A DNA stretch of 64,000 nt from Trypanosoma brucei. Its lineage: Eukaryota. The stretch covers positions 2,141,234 through 2,205,233 of the forward strand of contig CP000070.1 of assembly GCA_000002445.1 (NCBI GenBank), given 5' to 3'. Position numbers and translations under genes: made by a program. This document shows, piece after piece, positions 38,801 to 64,000 of this stretch (the first letter of the stretch is position 1; every line of letters starts with the position of its first letter). A model generated the notes under the pieces. It had not been told where the DNA came from and searched no databases. It was given only the letters and a program-made list of their open reading frames with translations.

Positions 38801-39161
38801 TGACTGCTAGTGTGCTTTGTTTTTGTTACTGGAATCCAGTCTATGATATTATAATGCTCCATTTACGCATTTACTCTTATGCCTAGTGATGTTTTATGTT
38901 TTTATATCGGATACATGAATGATGTGTGTGTGTGGGAATGTGTGTTGAACTACTTTCACACTGTTGTGGTTTGTATAATGTTATCCACTACAGTAGTTCC
39001 CTTTCCTACACTCTTATATACAATTATCATATGGAGTCTTATTGTGCCACAATCCAACATATCTGTACATATGCAGTCTATTAATCCTGCACCAATACTT
39101 TGTTATTATGCCGTTTTTGTCCTGTAGTTTGAAAGTTGAATTACGTTGAGTTACCAGTATT

Positions 39162-45800: not shown

Positions 45801-46549
45801 TCTGTGAAGTTTTTCACTTCTAATGTGTTGTTACCAGTTGCGTTCATACACCTAAGATGTGTACGTTAAGAAGGTGCAGCGTGTGAAGTGGAGGTTGCCA
45901 CAAAGTAAAACTATCATCTGGTGCTGATTCAACGTGTTTGCTTCAATCCCTTTTTACATCTCCCCTGTGGATATTTTGGTTTGTGGGAGGTATCTCTCAA
46001 ATGAAACTGCTGCCGACAACTATTTGCAACATCTAATACCTGTGCATAGCTTCCTGCATGTTTCCGTATGCTTCTTGTAACTTTCCTCATATTCCCTCGT
46101 ACCCATTCTCTCTCTTTTACCTTTAGACAACCAAGGAATATGAAGCTGAGCAATGTCTGCCATGCTGTTGTCAGTTGAATGTTAACTGTGACTGCTAGTG
46201 TGCTTTGTTTTTGTTACTGGAATCCAGTCTATGATATTATAATGCTCCATTTACGCATTTACTCTTATGCCTAGTGATGTTTTATGTTTTTATATCGGAT
46301 ACATGAATGATGTGTGTGTGTGGGAATGTGTGTTGAATTACTTTCACACTGTTGTGGTTTGTATAATGTTATCCACTACAGTAGTTCCCTTTCCTACACT
46401 CTTATATACAATTATCATATGGAGTCTTATTGTGCCACAATCCAACATATCTGTACATATGCAGTCTATTAATCCTGCACCAATACTTTGTTATTATGCC
46501 GTTTTTGTCCTGTAGTTTGAAAGTTGAATTACGTTGAGTTACCAGTATT

Positions 46550-49500
46550 ATGGTTATCTTCATGCGTGAATTGTATGTTAGGGATGGCGTAGTCACCTAC
46601 GTAGTGTTTTCTTTGTTACTACAGGTGCTGACTGCATCATCACTTGCAAGTGGTGAAATACAGGTAAAGGTATACAACATGTTATACAGTGGCAAGATTT
46701 CAGCAAAGGTATTTGATCCTATTACTGCAGGCTTCAACGCATCTCTTACCAACGGAAAGTCGCCTTCAGGTGGTAAAGTGACAGTCATATATGTTCCACC
46801 TAAGAATGATTCAGATTACGTTGAACATCTTAATAAGGAACCGTCATTTGTCAACTTAAACGAAATATCTGTTGTGCTGGGACCTGTGGGTGACAAAAAC
46901 ACTCTCGACTTAACCGAATATTTCAAAGAAAAAAAGGTGATTGGTTTCTCACCCTTCACAGGATCCAGTAAGGTACGCAGTTGGAATCCTAATCTGTACT
47001 TCCTGACGGCATCACCCGCTGCTGAGATGCTTGCTCTTCTCCGTTATGCTATCACTCAGTTACGGTTACATCGACTGGGTTTCATGTACTTGAAAAATGT
47101 TTCTTATGGTGATGATGAATATGAACTTGCTGTGGAATTGACAACAAGGATGGATCGCAAACTGTGTGGTGTTTTTGCATTGAATAGTCAACTTCGTGAG
47201 GAATCGGATGTTAGTACCTTCACTGCGGAATGGGATAGGTTTGCCGATACTCGACCCCAGGGTGTGATTGTATTTGGCTCTCCAATCCCTGATACGAAGA
47301 GATTCCTAATGAAATCATTAGAAGATGAAAGGACAAAAAATGGATATTTGCTCATACCCTCTACACTCCAATATGTGATCGACAACAAGTGGTCAGAAGA
47401 ATTGAATAGGAGCAAATTTCCAGCCGATAAGACAATAATAACAGGGACTAATCCACTTGCGAAGGATGATGGCTATGATGCAATTAAACGTTTTAACAGA
47501 GAAATGGCTAAGTTCCTGGAGGACAACAAACCTAATTTTTCTCATGACAAATGGAATGTTACCCTAAATTTTGACAAAGACAACTTCACCGAGCAAGACA
47601 CTGATGCTGAGCTGATGGTGAGTGGATGGATTGCTGGAGAGGTATTGAAGCAAGCAGTGAGCTGTCGCGAATGGCTAACTAACAGGGATGTATTTATGAA
47701 ATCACTTTACAATCAGCGTCGTTATGTAATTGATGATCTTGTGGTTGGTGACTTTGGTGGTGAGTGCCAAGGCATGGCGGGTGAGCGAGGTGCATCATGT
47801 TTATGTAACCAAGGTGGGAATGTGGTGTACATGAAGAAGATAGGAAAGGATCATCGGCTACATCCCATGAAGGAAGGTGCATTAACTCTTACTTCATCTC
47901 GCTGTTATCGAGACCTGTCACAGCTGTACGCCCCATTGAGTGGCATCGTGTTTAATATAACTGACAACCCTAAGGTGCTGCGGACTGCAGAGGCAATATA
48001 CGATGGTGCCTCTTATGTTGTTGGAAAGGGTCAACTGGGTCACTCTGATAGATTCTTTTTGCACTGGCTATCCTCGGAATCTCATGATACTTCTACAACT
48101 CTGTATGATGAAGTGAAGGAGCGAGTTGTAACTGCTGTGTTTGGTGTTGTGGATGATTCGTTACTGCGGACGAAGGGTATGACATTCATCGATCCTATAA
48201 TACTCACACCACAGCTGAGTGACCCCAGAAGGAATGTGATTCACCTGTCACCAACACTTGAGCAGCAACTATTCGTGATAGCTGAGCATATCATACAAAA
48301 TGGTACAGGAAAGATGCACGCCATTGTGCGTGGTGGTGATGCGAAAGGCATTGGCGATATGCTGAACAAAACCCTTGACTACTTTTTCGGTTCACTAAGC
48401 TCTCTTTCTGCGATTGGTGAGGGTTCTATTTTGAGAGACAAGCTACCGACTGCAGGTGAGGTATTGGTTGCAGGTCTCACCTCAGATGATATTCCAATAA
48501 TCCTCTCTCACCTTGGCAAACACCATAAGGTGCGTATCTTTGTCCCGTTCTTTGATGTTGCGTTACTCTATGATGAACTTGTGAATGCCTTCCGTGACAA
48601 GCCATTTGCTGACCGTCTGCTATTCGCGACGAATCTGCCGCATTGGAGGGATAAGAACACGGGATCCGATATGGTACGTGAGTTCCACAATGTTGTACAG
48701 AATGAGTCGAAGTGGAAGCCATTGTCATTACTTGGATATGCCACTGCACGTGCAATGATAAATGTGCTGCAACGTATGGGACATGTAACGCCGGAGGAGC
48801 TTGTAGACGCCATCTTCGGTCAATCTGTCATTACAGTTGATGATATGCGATATGGTCCTTTTGAAGACAAGTGTACTAACGGAGTTTCATCTGAAGAGAA
48901 ACACTGTGCTGTGAACTATGGTGCAACGCATATTTCTGTATGGTCGATGTCACGTGTTCTGAATCCTTCCGTGTCTCCTGTAGTGAATTCTGTCACACCA
49001 TCAATGAAGTATAATGAACCAAAATGGATTCGACTAATAAATAAGCATATTGGTGCTGTGGCAGCTGGCTGCATTGTTCTGTTGGCGCTGTTTGTTACGG
49101 TTCTGGCACTTATTGTAAAGGCATCACGCCGGAACGCACGTGACAATAATAATGCTCCCAAGGAACCAACAGACCCCGTAACATTAATATTCACTGACAT
49201 CGAGAGCAGTACAGCGCAGTGGGCAGCACACCCTGAGCAAATGCCTGACCTTGTGGCAACACATCACCGTTTGATCCGCTCCCTCATCACACGGTATGAG
49301 TGCTACGAAGTGAAAACTGTTGGAGACTCTTTTATGATTGCATGTAAAAGTCCATTCGCCGCCGTCCAACTCGCATGTGACTTGCAACGTGATTTTCTAA
49401 ACCATGACTGGAATACCACTGAGCTTGATGAATCTTACCGTGAATTCGAACGGCAGCGTGCGGAAGATGACAGTGATTACACGCCACCAACTGCGAGCCT

Positions 49501-50281
49501 GGACCCTGAGGTTTATCGGCAACTGTGGAATGGGTTGCGTGTACGTGTAGGGATTCATACTGGATTGTGCGACATCCGCTACGATGAAGTGACGAAGGGT
49601 TACGACTATTATGGACGCACATCCAACATGGCAGCACGCACGGAGAGTGTTGGTAACGGTGGTCAGGTGCTGATGACGCGCTCAACATACCTGTCACTGA
49701 GTGGTGAGGAGCGTGAGCAAATTGATGTAACGCCTTTGGGTGATGTGCCGCTACGTGGTGTGCCGAAGCCTGTGGAAATGTACCAGTTGAATGCTGTACC
49801 TGGCCGCAACTTTGCTGCATTACGGCTTGACCGTGAAGCTGAGGAGGAAGAAGATAATGGAACTGGTAGTATCACTAGTGAGTCAGGATCCCTCGCACAT
49901 GGTTTAACTGCCACTGCCCAACAAGTTGCTGGTTGTATTGACGCTCTGCTTGGCACATTCCCTGCTGCCCAACGACAGAAGATGCTTGCAACTTTTTGTG
50001 AGCGTTGGCGTGTTAAGAAACCCCCAGGTGTGGATAGTTGGAATGAAGCCAGTTGTCGCTCTGTTACTCGTCGGATTGCTGCGAAGGTGGGTTGTGTTAT
50101 GGATTTTGGAACGAGAAATACCTCTGGTAGCGTGGCTTCCTTTGAAAGGGGTGGAAGTCTCTTCTCACCTGGAGGAGTTGCTGCTGTAATGCTTGCCTCA
50201 TCCTCAAGCTCTTCCTGCGTTGCGGGACGCTGTGGTACCGTACAATTGATTGACCCAGAAAGTGCTAGCGCCGCCAGCTAA
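46550..50281 (+). CDS. GRESAG4: Receptor-type adenylate cyclase GRESAG4, tandem copy 2, 1243 aa
   Basis: Same length and architecture as copy 1. It differs from copy 1 at about 20 residues clustered in three patches (aa 94-105, 326-345, and the DIR[H/Y]DEV site), plus a few singletons (C17Y, Y55F, V250M, I831V). Confidence 0.92.
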   Translation: MVIFMRELYVRDGVVTYVVFSLLLQVLTASSLASGEIQVKVYNMLYSGKISAKVFDPITAGFNASLTNGKSPSGGKVTVIYVPPKNDSDYVEHLNKEPSFVNLNEISVVLGPVGDKNTLDLTEYFKEKKVIGFSPFTGSSKVRSWNPNLYFLTASPAAEMLALLRYAITQLRLHRLGFMYLKNVSYGDDEYELAVELTTRMDRKLCGVFALNSQLREESDVSTFTAEWDRFADTRPQGVIVFGSPIPDTKRFLMKSLEDERTKNGYLLIPSTLQYVIDNKWSEELNRSKFPADKTIITGTNPLAKDDGYDAIKRFNREMAKFLEDNKPNFSHDKWNVTLNFDKDNFTEQDTDAELMVSGWIAGEVLKQAVSCREWLTNRDVFMKSLYNQRRYVIDDLVVGDFGGECQGMAGERGASCLCNQGGNVVYMKKIGKDHRLHPMKEGALTLTSSRCYRDLSQLYAPLSGIVFNITDNPKVLRTAEAIYDGASYVVGKGQLGHSDRFFLHWLSSESHDTSTTLYDEVKERVVTAVFGVVDDSLLRTKGMTFIDPIILTPQLSDPRRNVIHLSPTLEQQLFVIAEHIIQNGTGKMHAIVRGGDAKGIGDMLNKTLDYFFGSLSSLSAIGEGSILRDKLPTAGEVLVAGLTSDDIPIILSHLGKHHKVRIFVPFFDVALLYDELVNAFRDKPFADRLLFATNLPHWRDKNTGSDMVREFHNVVQNESKWKPLSLLGYATARAMINVLQRMGHVTPEELVDAIFGQSVITVDDMRYGPFEDKCTNGVSSEEKHCAVNYGATHISVWSMSRVLNPSVSPVVNSVTPSMKYNEPKWIRLINKHIGAVAAGCIVLLALFVTVLALIVKASRRNARDNNNAPKEPTDPVTLIFTDIESSTAQWAAHPEQMPDLVATHHRLIRSLITRYECYEVKTVGDSFMIACKSPFAAVQLACDLQRDFLNHDWNTTELDESYREFERQRAEDDSDYTPPTASLDPEVYRQLWNGLRVRVGIHTGLCDIRYDEVTKGYDYYGRTSNMAARTESVGNGGQVLMTRSTYLSLSGEEREQIDVTPLGDVPLRGVPKPVEMYQLNAVPGRNFAALRLDREAEEEEDNGTGSITSESGSLAHGLTATAQQVAGCIDALLGTFPAAQRQKMLATFCERWRVKKPPGVDSWNEASCRSVTRRIAAKVGCVMDFGTRNTSGSVASFERGGSLFSPGGVAAVMLASSSSSSCVAGRCGTVQLIDPESASAAS

Positions 50282-53180
50282 TATTCCCCGTACCATTGCT
50301 GTATTTGCGCTTTGCTATTGAAGTGAATGAATAAGTTGTTTTACATGACGTTTGCAAGTTTTTATTTAGATTCATTTCGTATAAAGTGACCATTATAACT
50401 TTCCCTCCCCATTCTTGTGCATGCAATGATCTCCTCATACGGTAGATGCTTTAAATACCTTTGTACATGAAGATGCTTTTTGTTTCTGACATGGCTACTC
50501 TACTTTTGATAACTGTATTTGAAGATCGTAAATTTTCTTTTAATTCGTATGTTGAGGGATGGAAACGCACATGTTACTATTTTACATTCTGTTTCTTTTC
50601 GTCAGTGTTAATTATTCCATTAATTTTTCAAAAAGTCGTGGAGATAATGTGGACGAGAGGTGTTTAATTCTCACTGGCTCTTCTCACTTCATTTTCTTCT
50701 TCATATGGTCTTTGTTTGACTGATGGAGACAGTCGTGACGTTGTAATAGGGGTTATAAAATAAACTCCTCATCTTTATTACACCTCACAGAAATGCCATT
50801 TAATATTGTTAGTCCCTTATTCCTCGGAGGAATGGAATGTCACGGTATCGCAATTTATGATTTTATATGTTGAATCCTTCAACGTGCTAACACTATCATT
50901 CTCTTCACTTACTTGAACGAAAAGGGCTCTCAGGAACAAGAAGCGACTGTTTCTTTACGCGATACGGGCTTTGACATGATATTGTCGCGATAAATCATAT
51001 TGCAAAAATTACAGGTCTCCAATATGTCGCAGTCTAAATAAACAGACTTTAATTACGCTGATGAATGTAGCAAGAGAAATTGAGTGAGAATGCGTGTTGG
51101 CTTTGCATCGCGGCATTATGAATAAGTATTACGCATCCGCGTTGGCAGAAATTAGTGCACGCACAGAGCACCTTGGCCAGCAAGTAGCGGTGACAAATTT
51201 GGGTCGATGACTGTTGGACGTGATGATCTTGCGCCTACAGAAGATTGTGCCGAGAAGCGAGATCAAATAAGCGAGTCCCTTAACAAAAGGTCGGAATGGC
51301 TCAGATTATTACTTTTCGTCCGGATTGGAAGGAGTGTGTGGTTTTTGCGTTTGGTGTGGATTACGACAAGTCGCCGGGTGGAGATCCCGGCACCGATACG
51401 GAAGCATTTCCAATGGAACAGGGACAGTGTAGCGCTCCTCGATTGGTTGGTGACACCCAAGACAGCCAAGTCCAATTCACACCGAGCAGGTCGTTAAGTT
51501 CGCATTCGGGGATTAGGACGCTCTCGATATTACGCGACTACTCTCCACTTTGAAGTTCAAGGAACATGTAACAACGCTCACAACAACCAAAGTCGAACGT
51601 ATTCTGACTTCATGGGAGGTGATGACGCACCCCGTTAGAAGAGGGGCCTTTACAGCATGCTGCAGCCACAATTTGTGGAAGAACATAGCATGGATCCTCA
51701 CATTATTCCCCAACTGATTAAGCACATCTATCCGTTCCACTTGCCGAGGAACACTGTCAGCCACTTGGATAAATACACCGCCATGTTGACTAATATGTAG
51801 AATATAGTCTCTATGATGTAACCCATGTCTTAGATGAAGGATAAGAGCCATGGGAGCCGCCAGGGCGTTGCCCCTTCAAGACGCACGGTTATACGATAAC
51901 AAGGAGGGCGCACGCCACACGCCTGTTGAATACGCAGGACAAGGCTTCCATTCCTTTACAGCAAGTGCACGTCCCGCTGCTGGAGATATATTGAATCATT
52001 TCTCGCTTAAATTCGAGTGTGGAATGTAGATTTCAACATCTCTGGGGACTGATCGGACTGAGACCAAAAGGGACCAGTGAAAGGAGCCCTCAGGTTATTT
52101 CCATCGGCGATGATCGTTTACTTTGGAAGGTCGGTAGCGTAAAGGATGCCTCTTCCGCACCAACAGGAGCTCGGGTCATCCCTTTTCTCAATTGCAGAGG
52201 ATAAACCCTCCAACGAGCGTCGCTGGTGAATTGCGGGGCCTCAAGAGAAATAACAAAAGCGGATGAACCTTACGAGGCAATTGTTCCTTTTGGAACACAT
52301 TTCAAAATACCTCCATGCGGTTACTATCCTGAGTTGTCGACTTTTTCTGTCTGTTTTTTTTTTATTTTTTCTTAGAGGCGTTACGTCGTCGTCTTTTGCC
52401 TCGGACAGAGAACTTGTCCCCGCTACAGAGGCCGCTTTGTTGCCACTGTCCGCACTTGGTTTAGTAAGCGGGTATTGCTTTTTTGCCTGTTTAAAAATAA
52501 GAAACGCACGGTTACACCCAATTGGGAACCCGCAGTTGATTTGGTCACAGATGGCTCTTTGAGGGGTTGTGGGTCTGGGGCATGTCCTCTTATTGGATTC
52601 CGGTGAGGTGAAAGTAATGTTATGTGGTGTAGTTGGTTTAAGTTCCCTTTTCTTATCATGCAGGCTCAGGCCCGTGTCCTCCGACTCTCCTCAGTAGCAT
52701 TCGTGGAATCCTTTCCCCCTGAGTATTGACATTTGGGTTGATAATACATTCCTGTAAGGCGCGGAAACAAAAGGAAACACAAAAGCCTACGGTCTTTCCG
52801 TGGCCATGGATGAGATGTTTATGATATTTGATTCCCACAACATTAGCACAAATTACTCGTTTAACCGCTCCGTCAGCAAACCGGCGGTCGGCTCCCGCGG
52901 AGGCACACGGTTTAACTGTGCAAAGTTAGTGAAAGAGTGTAACTTACAAAAGGAAGTGGCGGTGTCCCGAGGCTTTTGGGGACCACATGAACTGCCCTTT
53001 CACAAGTCTACTGTGAAATAAATATTCCGCTGCTGCTTGCCACCTAAGTTTGTGTCAGATGGGTATTGATGATTATAGATTTAGTTTGCAACTCCTTGTT
53101 CCCCTCTATTTCATTTTCTTCCTTCATACATTAAGAGATCAAACAACTCCGAAATCCATATTCTCATCAACATTATTGTC

Positions 53181-56100
53181 GTTTTGTTTGACGTAATGTG
53201 TGGGTGCTTTCGGTGGGGCGCACTTCCAAGCGGCTAACCGGATCGACGAGCGAAAATAACGGTATGTAAAAAATACGAGTGTAGTGAGATAAAGGGGGAG
53301 GAGGGTTGGCTAAAGACGCTTCGGTACGCGAAGCTGGGCGTGCAAATGTGGAGTTGTGAGTGAGTGGTACTACTTCTATTTTTAATGTTTAGTTTTGTAC
53401 TCATTGAGTTGTTGGGATGGTTTTCAATTCTCTCCTCACAGTAGCGTATAGTTTTCATTTTCTTATCTATCATTTCAGGGCTTCCGTTTTTCGTTTTTGC
53501 GTATTGAGTGCAATCGGATAAGGATTCTGCTGCCTCCGTGGCTAGTTGTTAGATTAAGCTTACAAGTTCTTTTATTTGATGTTTCGATGTTTTTTTTTAA
53601 AAAAAAAACAAGACTAAGGTTCAGAGAGGTAGTCGAAAAAAAGTTACCGCCGTCCACCTGAACGGGGCCCATCTTCAAAAAAAAAAAAAGAGGGGTGGCT
53701 AGACATGAGGTTATTATCTGTTTGGATGCATTTAATTCTTTTTTGTATTAGGGTATTTGTATATATGTGTGCATATGGGGATTTTGTTTTTGCTCTAATG
53801 CAACTTTTTCTTCTTTTTGGGCGACCATGCCGGAAGAGAAAAAAAAAAGAGTATGTTCCGGGTAAAGGGGTGGAGGTAAGGAGTGCTTTTTGTGCTGCCG
53901 GCTGCGGCTGCGTTTGCGCTTGCTTTGGGCACCGGGAGCGCCGGTTGTAATCCTGAGAGTTGCGGAGCCGTGTGTTATAAACACGGGACTGTTAAGTGAC
54001 TGGTTTATTTTGCATTAACCGCTGCTGCCACAATGCTCACCACTTCTCAGTTGAATAAATGGTGCTTTGGTTGAGCATTTACCTCTTCCAGCTTTATAGT
54101 TTCCAACAAATATACTCGCCGGGGTGCGTGAAAAGACGAGAAGCATAGTTCATTACAGCAAATGGTCACGAATTCCAGTGGTTCCCAAAATCCGGCCTCT
54201 TTTCAGATGTCTCGCGGCGTCTCAGCCGAATTCACCTCAACGCCGACATCATCGCCGAGAAGACATCGGGTCGCCGCCTCCAGCAGAAAACACGAAATAT
54301 TGGACACCAGCGCCACGATAAGTCATTTACCATACTTATGCGAAGGAGATTTGCTCCTCAGAAGTGCTGATGAGATTGTTTTGCCGGTTTCCAGCTGAAG
54401 TCACTGATGGGTCCCAGACCTTTGTAATGAGGTTAAAAAATAATATGACCCCGCGCGTGAGATTGCAATTCCCTTCACAGCCTTTGAACTTATTTCCTCT
54501 ACCTCTGCTGCTTTATGGTGCCTACGCGTGCGTCAATTGATTTATCAAAATAATAATAATAATATAAATGGGAATACCATATAGATGCGCAAAAAACAAG
54601 CAACTATTCTGCATCACAACGCAGTAACTTGTAGAGGATAAAAAGAACCCAAATTCCGAGAGTTGCAAGTTCCAGGGTTACCGATTGCAGTTAGATAAAC
54701 GCGTGTGATAAATACCTTCACATGTGACAGGCTGTAGTTTTCCGTCACTCTTTAAAAGATTCCACACGTGCAAATCGCCTGAATGAATATTTCCCTACGG
54801 CATCTTTCTTTTTTATTTTTGGTGAAAGGCCAATTTATATCTGATATGAGACGTAATACCTCAAACTTTTCCGCACTCTCCTGTAAACTCCGTGCAATTC
54901 TTCAAAGTTCTATGAGCAGCTAATCAAATTATGCATAGCGCTGCATGCTTTAGCGATCGAAAATAAACGCTTAGCCGTTACACATAATCTCATTATTTGG
55001 AACACAGTCCACAAACTTCACTGATAATCATTGCGTTGCATCATCGGTTGCAAACTGAAATTAACCACGTCACCAAACCACACTTATATAAACTCGCAAA
55101 AAATAAATAAGAAATAAGCGGTTGCATATATCATACCACTTCTTGCAATGTAAACCGAAAATAGTGCGTCGTGGCAGTGCGCTTGAAATTAGTAAACGAA
55201 AAAATTCCTGTATCATAAAAGTCTTTCACTATTTCCTGAAGTATTTCAATCTCCAACTAAGCATCATGCAGAACACCTTAAAGCCACTCCACTTTCCAAT
55301 ATATAAAAATCCCACTAATGTTACTTTCATGTGCCATCGCAGTGCGTCCTCATGCTTTTAATTTCAGTAGTCATTCACTTCCCAAGTTCCGTAAGCATTT
55401 ACTGCTAATAATGTAAGCGAAACAATTTGGGGATATGATATTCAAATGACAGTTGTTCTTCGATCTCACATACATCTCCCTTCAGATGCAGCGCTGCCTT
55501 TCGTCTCTTTCTTTTTTCTCAAATAGATAAATAATATTTGATATTTTACTATTTCGAATCGGTGTGGATTTGTGGAACTTAAATGTGCGGCTGTCTATAA
55601 CTCATCAGCTAACAGCAGTGTCTAATTAATTTAAGTGTGTGAGGAGGAAATCCTTTGCTCGTTATTGTCAAATAAAAAGTAAATATGAAGAAATACATAA
55701 TTTACCTCAGCAGTGTTTTCTGGAAAGTCATAAACATATACGGATACGGTAAGAAAAGGAAAATAAAATGAATGAAAGGATTTGCTCTCGCCTTCAGTTC
55801 TTCTGAGGCATCATGTTGTAAGGAAGAAAATAATATTTCCCAAAACCAGTGAAATGGTTACTACATTTTTCCATGCACAAGTAGCACAAATGTTAATGAA
55901 TTAATGTAGTGCACAACCCTTTGCTGTGCAACAGGATTCTGGATGTATGACATCTTCACAAATATTTGGCCCAAATAATTCTGAAAGGAAATGCAATAAA
56001 ATAAATTATGTTATTACAAAAATAAATAAAATAAGTCAAAATATTTTGATGAAACAAGGGGATTCGATTACACTGTTTGAGAATATATATATGTCAGCAG

Positions 56101-57183
56101 CAAATGTAAAAAAAGGATCACGAGACACGTAATGTGTTTTAAAACACTCTCCCATGTAAGAACTTGGTGGTCAAGATGCTGCTCTGATATAATTTATTGT
56201 AAAGTCACTCCGCCACTTCTTTCAGTAAATAATAAATAAGAATAATGAAATATATTCACTATACTTTAATGGTATATAAACTTCACCACCTCATATCATT
56301 GACAGGTGTACAGTACTGTAGAATGTTGAGTGCTTTTACTTTTCAGGTGTGGCTATGAGTAAAAATCAAATGTGGATGTTGTGTCTCAGACAACAATAAT
56401 GTTAATAATAATATTTCATTCAGTGTGTGAGAAGGTGTGTAGTTATAAAGTTAGAAGGTCATGCAAAATAATGATATGCTCACTTGTTATAGTTATAAAG
56501 TGAATGAGAGTAACACAACATTTACTACGGTTACAACTAAAATACAAATTTCCACTGAGAAAACAACCTTGTGCATACATACACACACACACACACACAG
56601 ACACAGACACTTTCCTAACTGTTCTTTACTCTTCACAATATACGATTGGTATGACTTACTAAATTGTGAAACGCTTACACGACTGTAATAAAATCCTTGT
56701 ATTTCTCGTATTTAAGATACTGTAACATCTAATACCGTCCATGTGAATTGTTACTGGTACCTGTCCGAATAATAGTGCCTACAGTAAATAACTACTCAAG
56801 CTGGCTGTTTAATTTAATAACGTGTTCTCATCAATAAGTTGTTACAATAATACAACGCGAAATAATGGACCACATATTAATGGATATGTACACTCCTTTT
56901 TCCAAGTTCACGCAGGATATCAGAACTGGCATGAGCATTTTTGAGATCCACCCAAGAAAGACATGACAATTCTAAAAGACTCCTGAATCCTTGTGTGGGC
57001 CCCCTTTCATCATAGCTCCGACAGAGATGCAATTTTTTAAATTGATTTTATTTTCCCAATTGGTGTAATATCATCAAGCTTTTCACAATAAGAGAGATTG
57101 AGCTCCTCAATGGTATGGGATGATTGAATTTCCCTGAGATCTTCATCTGTAATGAAAGAACAAATCAAGTCAAGAATGCGCAA
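53181..57183. terminator. Convergent strand-switch region between the plus-strand block (GRESAG4 array) and the minus-strand LRRP block; candidate pol II termination zone
   Basis: Gene orientation converges here. No convincing ORFs. Contains a T10A10 homopolymer pair (53590..53609) and a 2.5 kb AT-rich block (about 54540..57100) that contrasts with the about 50% GC flanks. Confidence 0.4.
53590..53609. repeat. T10A10 palindromic homopolymer pair
   Basis: Direct reading of the sequence. Confidence 0.9.
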
Positions 57184-58083
57184 CTATGGAAGAGTGAAAA
57201 GTGCACCAAACCCCCGCGTTAGCTCTTTGCATACTCCTATATGCAACTCCTCCAGTGTTTTGATATTAGCAAGACATGAAGCATCGGTCATATCACACGA
57301 TCGGAGGTTGAGTGTAACGAGGGATTTGCATCTGCTGATATAGTATCCACCGTAACGCGTCGTAACTCTGGCGGATTCCAAGTTGAGCACACTGAATCGT
57401 GGTAATTCGCTTAGTGCTTCCCAGCCTGAAGTTATGGGGTAACATCCGCTCAGATTCAATTCCTCCAGTGCCGTAAGGTTTGATATATGAGATATGTCTG
57501 TTAGTTTCCAACTGGAGGCTAGGTTGAGTGACGTAATGGATCGAGACAGACAAATATCATCAAGTGCGCTATTGCTAATGCGAGATAAACCGAGATCCAG
57601 CGATCTAAGCCGTGGTAGTTTCCCAAGTGTCCAGACTCCTTCCAGGGTATCACCGCATTCCCGCAATGACAATTCCTCAAGGGACGTGATGTTGGAGAGG
57701 GGTGTTGCGTCTGTTAGGTCCTCGCACAATTCAATAGTAAGCCTCACGAGAGATTTGCTCGTTCCAATGGATTCAACAGATATATCACTACCTCTCACAT
57801 TTCGCAGAAGCAAAAAACGCAACCGTGGCAGTGCACCAAGAGCATTCAGTCCCTTGAGGCCGTCTGAGCAGTTCTTAACTATCAGCTCCTCCAGTGATTG
57901 AATCTCATACACCACCGTAACATCTGACAACTCCTCACACCGAAACAACTTTAGTTTCACAAGTGTTTTGCAACTGCTAAGGCAACCTATGCCTTCATCA
58001 GTGATGTTGGTATCAGATAGAATTTCTACACGTAGTAGAGGCAGCTTTCCGAGCGACTCCCAGCCTTTTTTTTTAATTCCATT
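57184..58083 (-). pseudogene. LRRP: Same-frame continuation of the LRRP repeat array downstream of the TGA at 58084..58086 (about 300 further codons). The gene is either a nonsense-interrupted pseudogene or carries a sequencing/strain nonsense variant
   Basis: Both ORFs are in the same minus-strand frame (61221 and 57960 are both 0 mod 3). Reading through the TGA gives ...LEELNVNC*NGIKKKGWESLGKLPLLRVEILSDTNITDEGIGCLSSCKTLVKLKLFRCEELSDVT..., which preserves the LRR register exactly. The 258-aa ORF-track entry starts at a GTG and is not an independent gene. Confidence 0.6.
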
Positions 58084-61000
58084 TCAGCAGTTAACATTCA
58101 GTTCCTCCAGTGTCAATAGAGAAGACAATGCTGATATATCAGTTACCCATTTGCAATGTGATAAGTTGAGTAATCGCAGCGATTTTGATTTGGAAATATT
58201 TTTAGTTACATCACCATTAATATCCGTATATTTCAGATTCAGTACTCGAAGGCGCGGTAGACAGGAAAATGACGGTATGCAACATACTTCCTGTGCATGA
58301 TCAAGTACCAATTCCTCCAACGTCGCAATGTTAGAGAGAGCTTTCACAGATATGAATCCCATTGACCTCTCAAGATTCAGTTTCACAAGTGACTTACTAT
58401 TCCCAAGGATGGAACATTGTTGCGCATCACTGTCTCCCATGTAACATTCTTTCATGCTTGGGATACGTGCCTTGGGAAGCGTTCCAAGAGTTTCAATACC
58501 TTTTCTGATGTTAAGGTAGCAATCAAGGTTTAACTCCTCAAGCATAGTAATTTTGGAAAGTGCTGTGACGTCTGTTATATCTTTGCAAAACGCAAGGTTG
58601 AGTGTATTCAAAGACTTGCACTCGCTAACGTGCCGTATGTTTTCATCATTAATTCGTGTATTAGACAGTGTGGCTACACGCAGTTGGTGAAGTGTACCAA
58701 ATACATTCCTTTCGGATGTTACATTACAGTAGTTGTCAAGGTTGAGTTCCTCCAATGCCGTAAAGGAAGCTATTGCAGAAATAGATGTTATTTTCTTGCG
58801 ATGCGAAAGATTTAATGATACAAGTGGGATTGAGCTTGTGCAGATATTCTCAAGGGAATTATTATCAACTTGTGTCCGTCCCAAATCCAGTACACGAAGC
58901 TGCGGTAGCCTGCTAAGTGTTCCCATTCCAGAGGTTACTTTGTCACAGTAGTGGAGATTCAGTTTCTCAAGTGTAACAAGGTTCGAGAGGGGCGTGACAT
59001 CACCAAACCCTTTGCAATTCTCAAGACTGAGCTTTACAAATGAGTTACCATTCCCTAGTGAACCAATAACTGAATCTTCCAACTGTACACCCTTTATGTT
59101 CAGCACACAAAGCCGTGGCAACTCTCCAAGAACGCTCAGCCCTTTTCTGATGTTTGAACAATTATCAAGATTCAAATCCTCAAGCGTAGTGATGTTAGAG
59201 AGGGTTGTAACATCAAGTAACTTATTGCAGAAAGAAAGATCAAGCGTAACAAGGTTTTTGCACTTGCTGAAATGCGATATGTCTCTATCAGTAATATGTG
59301 TATTCGAGAGGATTGCCACATGTAGCTGCTGAAGTTTTTCAATTGCTTCCCATCCTGCATTTATTCCAAAACAGTTGCTCAGATTCAGTTCATTCAATGC
59401 TTCGAGGCTTGAAATATGGGACACATTTGTCATTTTCCAACAATGGGAAAGGTTGAGGGACACCATTGTCTGCGATAGGCATAAACTTCTGAGAGACTCA
59501 TTGTCGGTATTTGTGCCAGACAGGTCCAACATTTTAAGCTGTGGCAGGTTTCCGAGACATCCAATTCCTGCGTCAATACCCGTGCAGCCGTGAAGGCTTA
59601 GTTTTTCCAGAGTCAAAATGTTGGCGAGTGCTTCCACATTACTCAGTCCCGTGATACTCTCCATATTGAGCTGTAAAAGGGATTTTGAAGCACCAATACC
59701 AGCAAAGTCAAGGGACGAGATGTGTGCCTCCTTTATGTTAAGTACACGCAGGTATGGCAGTGTACCAAGGCAACCCACACCACTAATGATGTCAGCACAT
59801 TTTTGAATATTCAGCTCCTCGAGTGTAACAATGCTGGATAAGAGTGTCATATCACCAAAGCCTGCGCAGTTATCAAGACTGACCTTTACAAGTGGTCCAC
59901 CAGTCCCAACTGAATCGAGAGATGGCTCGCTCAGGTGCACATCCTTCATGTGCAATACACGGAGCTTTGGTAATGCCCACACAACGCCTATCCCCCTTGT
60001 TATTCGGCGACAACCGTTAAGGTTCAATTCCTCAATAGCAGTGGCATTGGAGAGTGGATTGATATCTGTCAGCTGAATACGATAAGAAATGTTCAGCCTT
60101 TCAAGCGATCCACAGTCACACAAATCCTTCAGACAATTATCTTCCACAGGAACACCACTCAAGTCAAGTACACGCAGTCGCAACAACCTAGTCAGTGTTC
60201 CTATTCCCTTCGTTATGTGGCAATTGCTTAGATTCAACTCTTCCAGCGCTGAAAGTTGTGAAATTGGGGTTGCATCCGTGATATTGTTGCATTCGGATAC
60301 ACTCAGTTTGGACAGTTTAACACATGCACATATTCTCCTCACACAGCTGTCGTCAATGTCTGTGGAATTTAAATCAAGGCACATCAGGTTAGTCAAGCGA
60401 GAGATTCCTCTGATATTTGTCAGTTGCATGGTGTCAGTAATAACCAACTCCTCCAATGTTCCAACACTGAATATGCAGTGAATATCATTGTTGTCAATAT
60501 TGTTGCTCCTGAGACAAAGCCTTTTCAACATGTGCAGTTTCTTCAAAGATATCATATTCACAAGTTTGCCACGCGGATATTCAATGCGTAACTCTTCCAA
60601 CTGTTTTAGCTTACTGACTCGTTCTAAGTTAAATTTCCAACCTTTTGATAACGTGATGGTTAATTTCTTGGTATGAATGCGGCCACAGAGTGAGGAAAGA
60701 GCACCTTTATATAGTCCTTCGTCACTGAAGGCATTATCAGCAGCATTATATAATGTTACTCTATGTATGCATTCGGTGTCATCACACACACCGCCGTGCC
60801 TTTCGCCACTCATAGCTGTGAGATTACTCATGAAACACCTAAGTGCCTTCACACTGCTTTCCAGCCGTGTTTGTTTAATCAATTTATCATGCTCATTCAG
60901 TAACGATACCACAGTTTCATCATTACTGGCGTCACGCGTCTCTTCGGTGATTGTAACGGTGGTGAGTTTATTTTGTCCAGTAGTTGATGGTTCCTTTAAG

Positions 61001-61221
61001 GCTTCTGACTGCTCAGGAAATGGGATGCACTGTCGCTTACTTCCTTGGTTTCCTGACATTATAGTTCCCGTTTCCGATTCCTTGAGGTGCTGAATGTTGA
61101 CGAAATGCTTTTTCTTTTTTAATAATAGAGCTAAGCGATGAATCAAATGGGGGGAAGTGTTATAAGGAAGTAATTGAGGTGCATGCCAAAATGTGCTATG
61201 GTCAGTAATCCTAACCTTCAT
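58084..61221 (-). CDS. LRRP: Leucine-rich repeat protein (LRRP, ESAG8-like LRR architecture), N-terminal 1044 codons, ending at an in-frame TGA
   Basis: About 72-aa super-repeats of three LRRs (LEELNLSNC.ITKGIGTL..LP.LRVLDLSG..V.D..L..L....SL..L.L..C..ITD) recur about 14 times. The ATG at 61221 lies 9 nt after a minus-strand polypyrimidine tract with AG (plus 61230..61250). An alternative ATG is at 61059 (MSGNQGSKRQ). Confidence 0.8.
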   Translation of the reverse strand: MKVRITDHSTFWHAPQLLPYNTSPHLIHRLALLLKKKKHFVNIQHLKESETGTIMSGNQGSKRQCIPFPEQSEALKEPSTTGQNKLTTVTITEETRDASNDETVVSLLNEHDKLIKQTRLESSVKALRCFMSNLTAMSGERHGGVCDDTECIHRVTLYNAADNAFSDEGLYKGALSSLCGRIHTKKLTITLSKGWKFNLERVSKLKQLEELRIEYPRGKLVNMISLKKLHMLKRLCLRSNNIDNNDIHCIFSVGTLEELVITDTMQLTNIRGISRLTNLMCLDLNSTDIDDSCVRRICACVKLSKLSVSECNNITDATPISQLSALEELNLSNCHITKGIGTLTRLLRLRVLDLSGVPVEDNCLKDLCDCGSLERLNISYRIQLTDINPLSNATAIEELNLNGCRRITRGIGVVWALPKLRVLHMKDVHLSEPSLDSVGTGGPLVKVSLDNCAGFGDMTLLSSIVTLEELNIQKCADIISGVGCLGTLPYLRVLNIKEAHISSLDFAGIGASKSLLQLNMESITGLSNVEALANILTLEKLSLHGCTGIDAGIGCLGNLPQLKMLDLSGTNTDNESLRSLCLSQTMVSLNLSHCWKMTNVSHISSLEALNELNLSNCFGINAGWEAIEKLQQLHVAILSNTHITDRDISHFSKCKNLVTLDLSFCNKLLDVTTLSNITTLEDLNLDNCSNIRKGLSVLGELPRLCVLNIKGVQLEDSVIGSLGNGNSFVKLSLENCKGFGDVTPLSNLVTLEKLNLHYCDKVTSGMGTLSRLPQLRVLDLGRTQVDNNSLENICTSSIPLVSLNLSHRKKITSISAIASFTALEELNLDNYCNVTSERNVFGTLHQLRVATLSNTRINDENIRHVSECKSLNTLNLAFCKDITDVTALSKITMLEELNLDCYLNIRKGIETLGTLPKARIPSMKECYMGDSDAQQCSILGNSKSLVKLNLERSMGFISVKALSNIATLEELVLDHAQEVCCIPSFSCLPRLRVLNLKYTDINGDVTKNISKSKSLRLLNLSHCKWVTDISALSSLLTLEELNVNC

Positions 61222-61229
61222 TCAGCAGT

Positions 61230-61250
61230 CTTTGGGGACAAAAGAAATGA
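61230..61250 (-). promoter_or_regulatory. Putative trans-splicing acceptor for LRRP (minus-strand tcatttcttttgtccccaaAG)
   Basis: Minus-strand pyrimidine run followed by AG, 9 nt upstream of the ATG at 61221. Confidence 0.35.
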
Positions 61251-61387
61251 TAATTGTAATGAGGTTGTTTTGTATATATATAGAAATCAATAAGGTGTGG
61301 CAAAAATATACTGTTTATTATTCTCAGTTGCTTACACGCTTAGCAGCCACAAGGGATTAATTTTATTCTCGTTGTTGTATTTATGAA

Positions 61388-61813
61388 TTACTGACCCAGT
61401 GCCTGGAGCACGCAGCAACAGTAGTTTCTGACAGTAGTATCAGGAAGTCTTTGCACTTCCTTAAACCGGAAGCTAACCTTCGCCTTCACGGCCTTCCCTC
61501 GCAGGGCAACTAGCATATAATTCTTATGCATTGATGTCGCGGCATGGAAAGTAAGGTGACACTTGCCTTCCCTTTCGTTGCTTGCAATATTTTCCAAAAG
61601 CACGGCACACACAACCACAAAACTGTTAGAATAATCCCAATCCTCACTCTCTCCACGAGCCACCCATATATGGTAGTGGCCTAGAATTTCAATTAATGTC
61701 ATTGCGTGAGCCCAAACGCAGTGACAAAACGGAAAGCGAAGACACATGGAAACACCTCCCGGATATGACACATACGCTTTATTTACCTCGGCTGCAGAAA
61801 CCAATTGAAACAT
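61388..61813 (-). CDS. Hypothetical small protein, 141 aa
   Basis: Intact ORF with a true ATG (MFQLVSAAEV) in the sense orientation of the minus-strand block. It sits 167 bp upstream of the LRRP ATG, with the LRRP acceptor tract between them. A segment LTFHAATSMHKNYMLVAL faintly resembles the roadblock/LC7 fold, but this is unsupported. Confidence 0.3.
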   Translation of the reverse strand: MFQLVSAAEVNKAYVSYPGGVSMCLRFPFCHCVWAHAMTLIEILGHYHIWVARGESEDWDYSNSFVVVCAVLLENIASNEREGKCHLTFHAATSMHKNYMLVALRGKAVKAKVSFRFKEVQRLPDTTVRNYCCCVLQALGQ

Positions 61814-64000
61814 CTACTGTGAAAACTGAAGGGACAACAGTAATTAGGTAGATGTATGGGCACTACGGTTTCCCATTAACTGTGGACAGGCGGAAATGTG
61901 TTGATTGAATGTCTTAGATAATCAGCGTTACGGGCGGGGAAATTCCATTCCCAAACTTTGCGTCCCGGTCCCTTTTTCAGGTATTGAAATATCTCTATAA
62001 GAAGCTTGGCACTCGTGTCTGTGCATGCCGTGATTTGTGTTGTGTTTTCATGTTAAAGAAATACCAGTGGTACATTCAATTCCAAAACACATTTCAAAAA
62101 CCTTTCGGTCTTTCCTTAGCCTGGTGGCAGTAACCATGATTCCTTTCATGAGTTCTGCAATGATGAGGGAATAGTTTGGAATGTATTGCCATTTTTTTCG
62201 TTGTTGGTTTTGCTTAATGTAATATTTCCCCCGCAAGTGGTGTACGCGCGACTTCTGAGAGTGAAACCAGTTGGAGAAATAACAAGCGGAAGTGTGGCAA
62301 ACAAAACACAGTTACCTTCATAATTGGAAAAGGACGAAGTGAAGCGGGTTCCCGCAAGTATTGTGTAACCCCAACGGAAGGAAAAAGGAAAAGGGAACAC
62401 GAAAGGGAACATTATGGCGCCATTGAGTATTAATATGCAGCGCCTTTTGCTTGACTTTGTTGGTGTTGGTGAGCGTGCGTGCCTCAGTGGTGAAAGCTCA
62501 TAAGTTTATGTGACGAATTTCTCAACCTTTTGTTTGTCCGACAGATTTACTGTTTGATATCTCGCACGGTTGGAAATACGCATTCCTCAACAGGGGAAGT
62601 GAAACGGATAACTTGTAAGAGGGGATGAGGGAACGCAAGTGCAGTGCAGTGCAGGTTCCACGGTGGAAAAAAAGAAAAAGCATCAGGGCAAATATCAGGG
62701 ACACCGCTTCACTCACATGGACGGAGCCGTCGGGTCATTTTCCAATGAAGGGATGGGAATATTGGAGCAACTATGGAGCATGCAATTTTTTTGAGGAAAG
62801 AAACAAAACAGTTCTTGTCATCCTACAAACAGGAGCCCCCTCTTTTCATACAACCCAAGAGGGAAAGAAAAACAAAGGGAGTATTATTATCTTCGTTTTG
62901 CACACAAATGCAGTACTCTGACATTCTGGCCATACTTCATAGAAGTGACAGCAACAATGTACAGGAAAAAAAAATGACGCTTAAAGAAAAACATATGCCC
63001 ACGCTTCGTTACCGTATGTAAAATCCCGTACTGATGGCCACGGTGTCGACGATACCGTTGATTGGCCGTCTTTTACCAACTCCTCGGTTCGAAAAGGTTA
63101 AGTGCGGGGAATTACGGCTCCAACAAGCGGTAAAAACTTATTGACATTAAATGGCCTAATCTCTGGTGGCCCACTCCCCTCTACAAATCACAACGCATGT
63201 GACATTATATAAGCTGCGTGCATAAGCAGCGCTCCGTAATATTATGCATTTGTCCATTCGGCGCTGTTAGAAATTGTGCAACCCCTTCGGAAGGAATGAT
63301 GTAATTGCAATCCCAACAGTAAAATACATCTCCTTATTCCGCTTTCATGGCACACTCACTTCGAAATCGCACAGCACCGCTGCGAATGGTATTTGTCTCC
63401 ACTGAGTTTGTATTGCCTCATCCCTAAACTTTTCCGCCTCGCCTATCGAAAGGGATCGTGTGTGCCATTATGGTAGTTCCCTGAAATCCACACGTCCCGC
63501 CACACACTTCACAGTTGCACGATACCTTGTAACATTCCTCTAGGGGTTTCCGCTGCACCATTTTAGTAACGACATCATGGAAAATAATAATGAATTCTGG
63601 TGGCATAAAGAAACGCCTACCTCACGCATAAGGGACGTGAGCATTGCATCATAACATCAGTGCTGTAGTCAACCGATGGTAACGATGACCCTCGACCCCG
63701 TAATGTTCGATGAAACCACATATTTCATCAAATGGGATGGCACCACCACAACGTAAATAATGCAACAAATATCGTGAAGGAAAAATATATTGTTAATTGA
63801 ACCTGTGGCAGTACGACGTGTTTTGAGGGGCATTTGATTTCAGAAGGATGCCTTGGAAATAAGACAAATTTTGAAGGGAACATCGGGTATACTCATGCAA
63901 GAATCAGACAAGGGCCCCAACGCAATGGTAACGAAGGCAATCCGCCGCAGAAGTGAATCGTGTGAGGGCATGTTTCAGCACTCCTTCACGCTGTGGGATC

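What the first reader, a model, noticed from the sequence alone, without database searches (positions are those of the whole stretch)
58084..58086. LRRP gene interrupted by a single in-frame TGA with perfect LRR register on both sides
A 1,344-codon LRR reading frame (57184..61221, minus strand) is split 1044 + 300 by one TGA. The downstream sequence continues the 72-aa super-repeat pattern in the same frame (…LTLEELNVNC*NGIKKKGWESLGKLPLLRVEILSDTNITDEGIGCL…). Three readings are possible: a young pseudogene, a strain-specific nonsense allele, or a sequencing error. A single transition would restore sense (TGA to TGG/CGA and others). LRRP genes sit beside GRESAG4 in T. brucei and mirror the ESAG8/ESAG4 pairing of VSG expression sites. 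A truncated LRRP lacking its last about 4 super-repeats could have altered function.
Basis: seen in the sequence. Interest (0 to 1): 0.6.

Follow-up and report, generated by a model that had tools for sequence, protein, structure and literature searches.

The report
Decayed LRRP pseudogene, three lesions
The in-frame TGA is real, but it is only the first of three disabling mutations in a duplicated leucine-rich-repeat gene copy on Trypanosoma brucei chromosome 7, so this is an ordinary decaying pseudogene rather than a gene one base away from being intact.

Summary
A TGA lies at 58084-58086 (minus strand) in an LRR reading frame, with the repeat register kept on both sides and a T9/A9 run at 58066-58074. 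The "single interruption" claim does not hold.

The window is T. brucei brucei TREU927 chromosome 7. Intact LRRP1-type paralogues (1393-1448 aa, about 90% identical) show the homologous coding sequence runs from the ATG at 61059 to a family-shared TAA at 56877-56879.

There are three lesions:
- TGC(Cys) to TGA at 58084-58086 (codon 992), next to a 3-nt in-frame insertion that creates the A9 run.
- CAG to TAG at 57184-57186 (codon 1292).
- A +1 T insertion at 57039-57041 (after codon 1340).

Removing the extra T restores a 1393-codon frame, the paralogue length. No protein was deposited for this locus, although its neighbours carry consecutive accessions.

All lesions, and an excess of private substitutions, lie in the 3' 29% of the gene. 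A truncated but functional 991-aa protein therefore remains a minor rival, at about 0.13. No SECIS element was found. Sequencing error is unlikely for three independent lesions. Whether the lesions are strain-specific could not be tested here. Interest is low.

The parts
56877..61059 (-). Full extent of the LRRP1-type pseudogene. It runs from the ATG (MSGNQG...) at 61059-61057 to the family-shared TAA at 56879-56877. This is 1393 codons once the extra T is removed.
   Evidence: tblastn of intact paralogues P0001 and P0002 aligns residues 1-1344 in one frame (61059..57031) and residues 1335-1393 in the next frame (57059..56883). The reconstruction gives 1393 aa. DNA alignment with L001-L003.
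61060..61221 (-). Optional 54-codon N-terminal extension (MKVRITDH...) up to the furthest upstream ATG. Chromosome 1 paralogues are annotated from this start and chromosome 2 paralogues are not.
   Evidence: Alignment (P0004 and P0005 include it; P0001-P0003 start at MSGNQG).
58084..58086 (-). Lesion 1: nonsense TGA at codon 992. It replaces the conserved LRR cysteine (TGC in L002 and L003, TGT in L001) by a C-to-A transversion.
58066..58074 (-). A9 run (T9 on the plus strand) created by a private in-frame 3-nt insertion plus a CG-to-AA change (GGAAT---ACGAAAAGG in paralogues, GGAATTAAAAAAAAAGG here). Not disabling.
   Evidence: DNA alignment. Protein alignment shows GI-RKGW in paralogues and GIKKKGW here.
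57184..57186 (-). Lesion 2: nonsense TAG at codon 1292 (paralogues have CAG Gln or CGG/AGG Arg).
57039..57041 (-). Lesion 3: +1 frameshift, TT to TTT (AAATCAA-TTAAAAAA in three paralogues, AAATCAATTTAAAAAA here). It creates an immediate TAA at 57037-57039 in the old frame. The conserved tail (KKLHL...RSVHIH*) continues in the next frame.
61388..61813 (-). DUF1181 gene directly upstream of the LRRP. Its annotated product is Tb927.7.7550 / XP_846374.1, 104 aa, at 61388..61702. It belongs to the same duplicated DUF1181-LRRP unit found on chromosomes 1 and 2.
   Evidence: Pfam DUF1181 E=7e-81. Exact match to P0122. Same gene order in L001 and L003.
55055..63180 (-). Approximate extent of the duplicated DUF1181-LRRP unit, including 5' and 3' flanks, that is shared with chromosome 1-type LRRP array units.
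   Evidence: blastn: 61700-63180 is 96% identical to L003 and 55055-57000 is 87% identical to L002 and L003. The gene body is 93% identical.

Best explanation
This is a non-processed (duplicated) pseudogene of the T. brucei LRRP1-type leucine-rich-repeat family. It sits on TREU927 chromosome 7 between the GRESAG4 pair and Tb927.7.7550.

Shown by the sequence: a copy of the DUF1181-LRRP unit, otherwise found in arrays on chromosomes 1 and 2, lies at the minus-strand side of a convergent strand switch. Its LRRP has at least three disabling mutations:
- Cys-992 TGC to TGA.
- Codon 1292 CAG to TAG.
- A +1 T insertion after codon 1340.
It also has a 3-nt homopolymer-forming insertion and a roughly 3-5-fold excess of private amino-acid changes in the segment downstream of the first stop.

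Inferred:
- The TGA, or another 3' lesion, arose first and released the 3' third from constraint, which then collected further lesions.
- The 5' 991 codons still look intact because inactivation is young relative to the divergence of the paralogues, and because the central repeats of this family are homogenised (95-100% identical across paralogues).
- Any mRNA produced by polycistronic transcription would terminate translation at codon 992. The product would lack about 5 super-repeats and the family-conserved C-terminal tail.
For: - Source identified by exact matches to XP_846372.1, XP_846373.1 and XP_846374.1 of TREU927 chromosome 7.
- Intact paralogues of 1393-1448 aa at 88-90% identity align end to end.
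- The three lesions are mapped at protein level and at DNA level against three paralogous loci, none of which shares any of them.
- Removing one T gives exactly 1393 codons ending at the shared TAA.
- At columns invariant in seven intact paralogues, the window copy has 18 private amino-acid changes upstream and 23 downstream of the TGA. Intact copies have 12-21 upstream and 3-9 downstream (Fisher p=0.001).
- Private changes include hits on consensus residues: C754R, W784R, C848Y, L867P.
- Private nucleotide substitution rate is 1.9% upstream and 4.0% downstream. The downstream value resembles the gambiense pseudogene L001 (3.4-4.5%).
- Neither the 1045-aa nor the 991-aa ORF exists as a deposited protein, while the flanking genes carry consecutive RefSeq accessions.
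- A sister copy in T. b. gambiense is explicitly named "LRRP, pseudogene".
Against: - All three lesions lie in the last 29% of the gene (chance about 0.024 if lesions fall uniformly).
- Private substitutions in the upstream 991 codons are depleted in non-synonymous changes (18 synonymous, 27 non-synonymous; omega 0.45; p=0.008 against neutrality).
- Both points would also fit a truncated gene still under selection.
- Pairwise dN/dS (0.38-0.64) does not separate this copy from intact paralogues.
- I could not view the TriTrypDB annotation, sequencing reads, RNA-seq or proteomics. Expression status and allele status (T. brucei is diploid) are untested.
Confidence: 0.8

Rival explanations
1. Truncated but functional LRRP. 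The TGA is an old, tolerated truncation. A 991-aa protein with about 11.5 super-repeats is still made and is under purifying selection, and only the untranslated 3' remnant decays.
For: - All three lesions lie at or after codon 992 (p about 0.024).
- The upstream part has no frameshift or stop across 991 codons.
- Upstream private changes are as few as in intact paralogues, with omega 0.45 (p=0.008 against neutral).
- The downstream omega of 0.73 is not distinguishable from neutral.
Against: - Ascertainment bias: the locus was flagged because its ORF is long.
- If all 45 upstream private substitutions were neutral, only about 1.8 stops would be expected, so observing none is unremarkable (P=0.16).
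- The central repeats are 95-100% identical across all paralogues. Concerted evolution or a recent origin explains the upstream conservation without selection on this copy.
- Synonymous divergence is also higher downstream (dS 0.17 against 0.07-0.09). This points to mosaic history rather than selection.
- Upstream private changes hit LRR consensus residues (C754R, W784R, C848Y, L867P).
- The lost C-terminal tail is conserved even in the 73%-identical P0006.
- No protein was deposited for this locus.
Confidence: 0.13
2. Sequencing or assembly error: the real gene is intact in TREU927.
For: The +1 T lies in a short T/A-rich homopolymer context, and the TGA sits 10 nt from an A9 run. This is a multi-copy family, in which mis-assembly is conceivable.
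Against: - Three independent lesions would all have to be errors, and two are base substitutions outside homopolymers.
- They are accompanied by 23 private amino-acid changes in the same segment.
- The TREU927 chromosomes are finished, BAC-based Sanger sequence (from my own knowledge, not checked here).
- The locus has unique flanks and is only 90-93% identical to any other copy recovered, so collapse of paralogues is unlikely.
Confidence: 0.03
3. Recoding: the TGA is decoded as selenocysteine or read through. It aligns with Cys in homologues, which is the classical Sec/Cys signature.
For: The TGA replaces a Cys codon that is conserved in all paralogues.
Against: - No SECIS or any other Rfam family was found at gathering threshold in the whole window.
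- None was found at E up to 5 in 54500-58300.
- The replaced Cys is a structural LRR-consensus residue.
- Read-through would run into the TAG 299 codons later, and then the frameshift.
Confidence: 0.01

Closest known systems
T. brucei LRRP1-type leucine-rich repeat proteins (CAD21749.1 LRRP1; XP_951476.1 and XP_951492.1 on chromosome 2; XP_846402.1, XP_846398.1 and XP_846409.1 on chromosome 1)
   Same: - 88-90% amino-acid identity over the whole length.
- The same 71-aa super-repeat built from three LRRs.
- The same N-terminal region and C-terminal tail.
- The same upstream DUF1181 gene and homologous flanks.
   Different: This copy carries two nonsense codons and a +1 frameshift in its 3' third, has excess private substitutions there, and has no deposited protein.
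T. b. gambiense DAL972 chromosome 7 "LRRP, pseudogene" (CBH14837.1 / XP_011777103.1; locus L001)
   Same: - A DUF1181-LRRP unit on chromosome 7.
- 92% nucleotide identity to the window copy.
- Also disabled and already annotated as a pseudogene.
- Partly colinear 3' flank.
   Different: - It has different lesions (its own 1-nt indels) and is intact at all three of the window's lesion sites.
- Its 5' flank differs, and it has a 5.2-kb insertion containing another LRR gene.
- 8-10% divergence is too much for a simple brucei/gambiense orthologue pair, so orthology is doubtful.
ESAG8 and the ESAG8-like chromosome-internal LRRPs (Tb927.1.3670, Tb927.3.580)
   Same: An LRR protein of the same broad trypanosome LRRP superfamily, found in the neighbourhood of ESAG4-related adenylate cyclase genes.
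   Different: - No RING domain was detected.
- ESAG8's closest relatives are other genes that carry RING and NLS motifs (PMC3605285).
- Here the LRRP and the GRESAG4 genes are on opposite strands in convergent transcription units.

Membership tests
T. brucei LRRP1-type LRRP family | LRR domain composition | tested here: met
   Pfam LRR_4 (E=2e-40 upstream, 1.6e-15 downstream) plus other LRR models on both sides of the TGA.
T. brucei LRRP1-type LRRP family | Full-length collinear similarity to named LRRP1 proteins | tested here: met
   88-90% identity over residues 1-1340 to P0001-P0004, P0102, P0103 and P0107. The tail of residues 1335-1393 aligns in the shifted frame.
T. brucei LRRP1-type LRRP family | About 71-aa super-repeat of three LRRs | tested here: met
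   Autocorrelation peaks at 71, 142, 213 and 284 aa. Anchor spacing is 70-74 aa.
T. brucei LRRP1-type LRRP family | Intact open reading frame of about 1393 codons (a functional member) | tested here: not met
   TGA at codon 992, TAG at codon 1292 and a +1 frameshift after codon 1340.
Duplicated (non-processed) pseudogene | Homology to functional paralogues, including flanks, with disabling lesions | tested here: met
   Three lesions that are absent from three paralogous loci and seven intact proteins. Flanks are homologous to chromosome 1 units.
Duplicated (non-processed) pseudogene | Relaxed selective constraint | tested here: inconclusive
   Downstream of the TGA there is an excess of private changes (Fisher p=0.001) with omega 0.73. 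Upstream, omega is 0.45 and significantly below neutral. Pairwise dN/dS is uninformative.
Duplicated (non-processed) pseudogene | No protein product annotated or expressed | tested here: inconclusive
   The ORFs are absent from the 15-billion-protein collection, while the neighbours carry consecutive accessions XP_846373 and XP_846374.
Selenoprotein gene (UGA = Sec) | In-frame TGA aligned with Cys in homologues | tested here: met
   TGC or TGT in L001-L003, and Cys in all paralogue proteins.
Selenoprotein gene (UGA = Sec) | SECIS element in the 3' UTR | tested here: not met
   No Rfam hit at gathering threshold in the window. No SECIS at E up to 5 in 54500-58300.
Selenoprotein gene (UGA = Sec) | Frame otherwise intact to the natural stop | tested here: not met
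   A TAG and a +1 frameshift lie downstream.
ESAG8-like LRRP | N-terminal RING zinc finger (plus NLS) | tested here: not met
   Only LRR models hit at E up to 0.001. The defining motifs are taken from PMC3605285. The NLS was not tested.

The most novel reading that the evidence does not exclude
The first 991 codons are maintained by selection as a naturally truncated LRRP lacking the last 5 or so super-repeats and the conserved tail. This would be a strain-specific shortened paralogue with altered partner binding, with the lesion-ridden 3' remnant serving as its 3' UTR.
Probability: 0.13. Interest if true: 0.3.

Novelty: already known. Interest (0 to 1): 0.1.

Why it matters
It matters little. 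Pseudogenes are common in the multi-copy, recombining gene families of T. brucei (LRRP, GRESAG4, ESAG, VSG), and a sister LRRP copy in T. b. gambiense is already labelled a pseudogene.

The useful outcome is a correction. The locus is not one base change from functional, and its apparent natural stop is a second nonsense mutation. It should not be treated as a candidate for a strain-specific null allele of an otherwise intact gene, nor for stop-codon recoding.

If the minor rival (a selected truncated protein) were true, it would be a modest example of functional diversification by truncation in an LRR family of unknown function.

Tried and rejected
- **Cross-strain test of whether the lesions are fixed.** Homologue searches with the LRRP, the DUF1181 neighbour and the GRESAG4 neighbour, plus the cluster member lists, found no protein more than 93% identical from T. 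b. gambiense, T. b. equiperdum or T. equiperdum. Exact-protein contig look-ups for window proteins and for TREU927 paralogues returned nothing. The question stays open.
- **L001 (gambiense chromosome 7) as the orthologue.** Rejected as a clean orthologue. It is 92% identical at nucleotide level, has a different 5' flank, a 5.2-kb insertion and different lesions.
- **Pairwise dN/dS to detect relaxed constraint.** Uninformative, because most divergence predates inactivation and the family as a whole has omega 0.4-0.65.
- **Selenocysteine or read-through.** No SECIS was found, and further lesions lie downstream.
- **Literature search for the locus ID.** Tb927.7.7540.7545.7550.7555 and .7570 gave no hits. 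The only hit was Tb927.7.7560, listed as a hypothetical protein and unrelated. LRRP family papers gave context only.
- **tRNA or ncRNA at the strand switch.** None found.

Full report
**Observation.** On the minus strand the sequence reads ...GAA CTG AAT GTT AAC TGC TGA AAT GGA ATT AAA AAA AAA GGC TGG..., with the TGA at 58086..58084 and an A9 run at 58074..58066. Translating 61221..57184 gives one internal stop and a terminal stop. The mechanical ORF list shows 58084..61221 (1045 aa) and, downstream in the same frame, 57184..57960. Both sides hit LRR Pfam models. The codon counts are off by one: 1045 + 299, not 1044 + 300.

**Where the window comes from.**
- The two 1243-aa ORFs at 39162-42893 and 46550-50281 are exact matches to GRESAG4 XP_846372.1 and XP_846373.1 of T. 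brucei brucei TREU927. They lie on a 2,205,233-bp record, which is chromosome 7.
- The DUF1181 ORF directly upstream of the LRRP contains, exactly, Tb927.7.7550 / XP_846374.1.
- The accessions of the two genes flanking the LRRP are consecutive, and neither the 1045-aa nor the 991-aa ORF is in the protein collection. So no protein was deposited for this LRRP.
- The rest of the window holds a third GRESAG4, a trans-sialidase, a RING protein and a 2OG-Fe(II) oxygenase.
- GC skew changes sign near 18-20 kb and near 54 kb. The plus-strand GRESAG4 pair and the minus-strand LRRP therefore converge on a strand switch.

**What the gene should look like.**
- A homologue search returned intact T. brucei LRRP1-type proteins of 1393-1448 aa at 88-91% identity with 100% query coverage. 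It also returned a T. b. gambiense entry named "LRRP, pseudogene".
- In the alignment, paralogues read NVNCCNGI-RKGWE where the window reads NVNC*NGIKKKGWE.
- The paralogues also continue for about 100 residues beyond the window's "terminal" stop: FTLPRLRILDL... in paralogues against FTLP*LRILDL... in the window.
- tblastn of P0001 and P0002 aligns residues 1-1344 to 61059..57031 in one frame, and residues 1335-1393 to 57059..56883 in the next frame.
- Three-frame translation shows ...GKIKSI*K... in the old frame and ...FKKLHLCRSYDERGPTQGFRSLLELSCLSWVDLKNAHASSDILRELGKRSVHIH* in the shifted frame.

**DNA-level proof.** I retrieved three paralogous loci:
- L001: T. b. gambiense chromosome 7, 92% identical.
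- L002 and L003: T. b. equiperdum chromosome 1, 93% identical.

The four-way alignment shows:
1. TGC TGA in the window against TGC TGC (L002, L003) or TGT (L001). This is a C-to-A transversion hitting the conserved LRR cysteine.
2. Immediately 3' of that, GGAATTAAAAAAAAAGG in the window against GGAAT---ACGAAAAGG. This is a private in-frame 3-nt insertion that creates the A9 run.
3. CCA TAG TTG in the window against CCA CAG TTG (L003), CCG CGG TTG (L002) or CCG AGG TTA (L001).
4. AAATCAATTTAAAAAA in the window against AAATCAA-TTAAAAAA in all three. This is a +1 T insertion.
5. A shared TAA stop after ...CAT at 56877-56879.

Deleting the extra T gives a 1393-codon frame with stops at codons 992 and 1292, which is exactly the paralogue length. 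None of the three lesions is present in any comparator. L001 has its own 1-nt indels.

**Repeat architecture.** Autocorrelation peaks at 71, 142, 213 and 284 aa, and LEEL-type anchors are spaced 70-74 aa apart. The TGA occupies position 9 of the unit beginning at residue 984, which is the conserved Cys of the LxxLxLxxC motif. A product ending there lacks 402 codons: about 5 super-repeats plus the C-terminal tail. That tail is conserved even in the 73%-identical P0006.

**Constraint.**
- At columns invariant among seven intact paralogues, the window copy has 41 private amino-acid changes, against 18-26 for independent intact copies.
- Split at the TGA, the window has 18 upstream and 23 downstream, against 12-21 and 3-9 for intact copies. 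Fisher p=0.001.
- At nucleotide level the private substitution rate is 1.9% upstream and 4.0% downstream. Omega is 0.45 upstream and 0.73 downstream.
- The upstream value is significantly below neutral (p=0.008); the downstream value is not.
- Pairwise dN/dS does not discriminate this copy from intact ones.
- Sliding identity shows residues 300-640 are 95-100% identical across all family members, while the last 100 residues of the window copy fall to 75-78%.
- Downstream dS is also elevated. Mosaic or concerted evolution therefore contributes to the pattern along with relaxed constraint.

**Interpretation.** The locus is a duplicated pseudogene with at least three disabling lesions, all in its 3' 29%. 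That clustering (p about 0.024) and the low upstream omega keep alive a minor rival: that the 991-codon remnant is a functional truncated LRRP. Several points weigh against that rival:
- Ascertainment bias: the locus was flagged because its ORF is long.
- Only about 1.8 stops would be expected upstream under neutrality (P of none = 0.16).
- The central repeats are homogenised across the family.
- Private changes hit consensus residues upstream: C754R, W784R, C848Y, L867P.
- The conserved tail is lost.

Sequencing error would have to explain three independent lesions plus surrounding private substitutions. Selenocysteine or read-through is excluded for practical purposes. No SECIS or other Rfam family was found, and decoding the TGA would only reach the TAG.

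**Context.** The DUF1181-LRRP unit, roughly 55055-63180, is a dispersed copy of the chromosome 1/2 array unit. The 5' flank 61700-63180 is 96% identical to L003, and the 3' flank 55055-57000 is 87% identical to L002 and L003. The LRRP has no RING domain. ESAG8's closest chromosome-internal relatives are different genes (PMC3605285). The ESAG8/ESAG4 analogy is therefore only a loose family-level resemblance.

**What could not be done.** No orthologous sequence from another strain was obtainable. No protein more than 93% identical exists for the LRRP, the DUF1181 gene or the GRESAG4 pair in the annotated gambiense or equiperdum proteomes, and the exact-protein contig look-ups failed. Whether the lesions are fixed, strain-specific or heterozygous is therefore open. 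The literature search did not retrieve the locus.

**Verdict.** The TGA is a real feature, but the finding is ordinary: a known kind of decaying paralogue in a recombining multigene family. Interest is 0.1.

Noticed in passing
window 36201-53146: Tandem duplication of GRESAG4 with a period of about 7.39 kb. The genes lie at 39162-42893 and 46550-50281 and are 99% identical. There are three copies of a 2.17-kb flank (36201-38367, 43585-45755, 50976-53146), and this flank is also 95% identical to a segment next to the gambiense chromosome 7 LRRP pseudogene (L001 7069-9232).
   Followed up: partly
window 39162-50281: The two GRESAG4 copies have no relative above 85% identity outside their own two-member TREU927 cluster. 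The best T. b. gambiense relative is 83% identical and lies on a different chromosome-sized record. This suggests the GRESAG4-GRESAG4-LRRP pseudogene block is strain-variable, or is collapsed or absent in other assemblies.
   Followed up: partly
window 61388-61813 (-): Tb927.7.7550 is annotated as 104 aa from an internal Met. The ORF is 141 aa, like most family members, and the Pfam DUF1181 model (120 positions) aligns to residues 1-120 of the 141-aa ORF. The deposited start is probably 37 codons too short.
   Followed up: partly
L002 about 2850 and L003 about 2770 (T. b. equiperdum CM010672.1): Both equiperdum chromosome 1 LRRPs are split into a short ORF plus an 1101/1102-aa ORF by single-base deletions relative to the window and to each other. 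These are either real frameshifts or long-read indel errors. The products are also labelled "paraflagellar rod component" in that annotation.
   Followed up: no
window about 18000-20000 and about 54000: GC skew changes sign at both places, matching a divergent and a convergent strand-switch region. No tRNA or Rfam RNA gene lies at either.
   Followed up: partly
window 56577-56610: An (AC)n microsatellite of 34 bp lies about 270 bp downstream of the pseudogene's natural stop.
   Followed up: no
proteins P0145 and P0157: Two proteins labelled Schistosoma mansoni ("receptor-type adenylate cyclase, putative" and Smp_112590), on 17-20 kb contigs, are 48-49% identical over 94-95% of the trypanosome GRESAG4. 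This looks like possible kinetoplastid contamination of that assembly rather than a schistosome gene.
   Followed up: no
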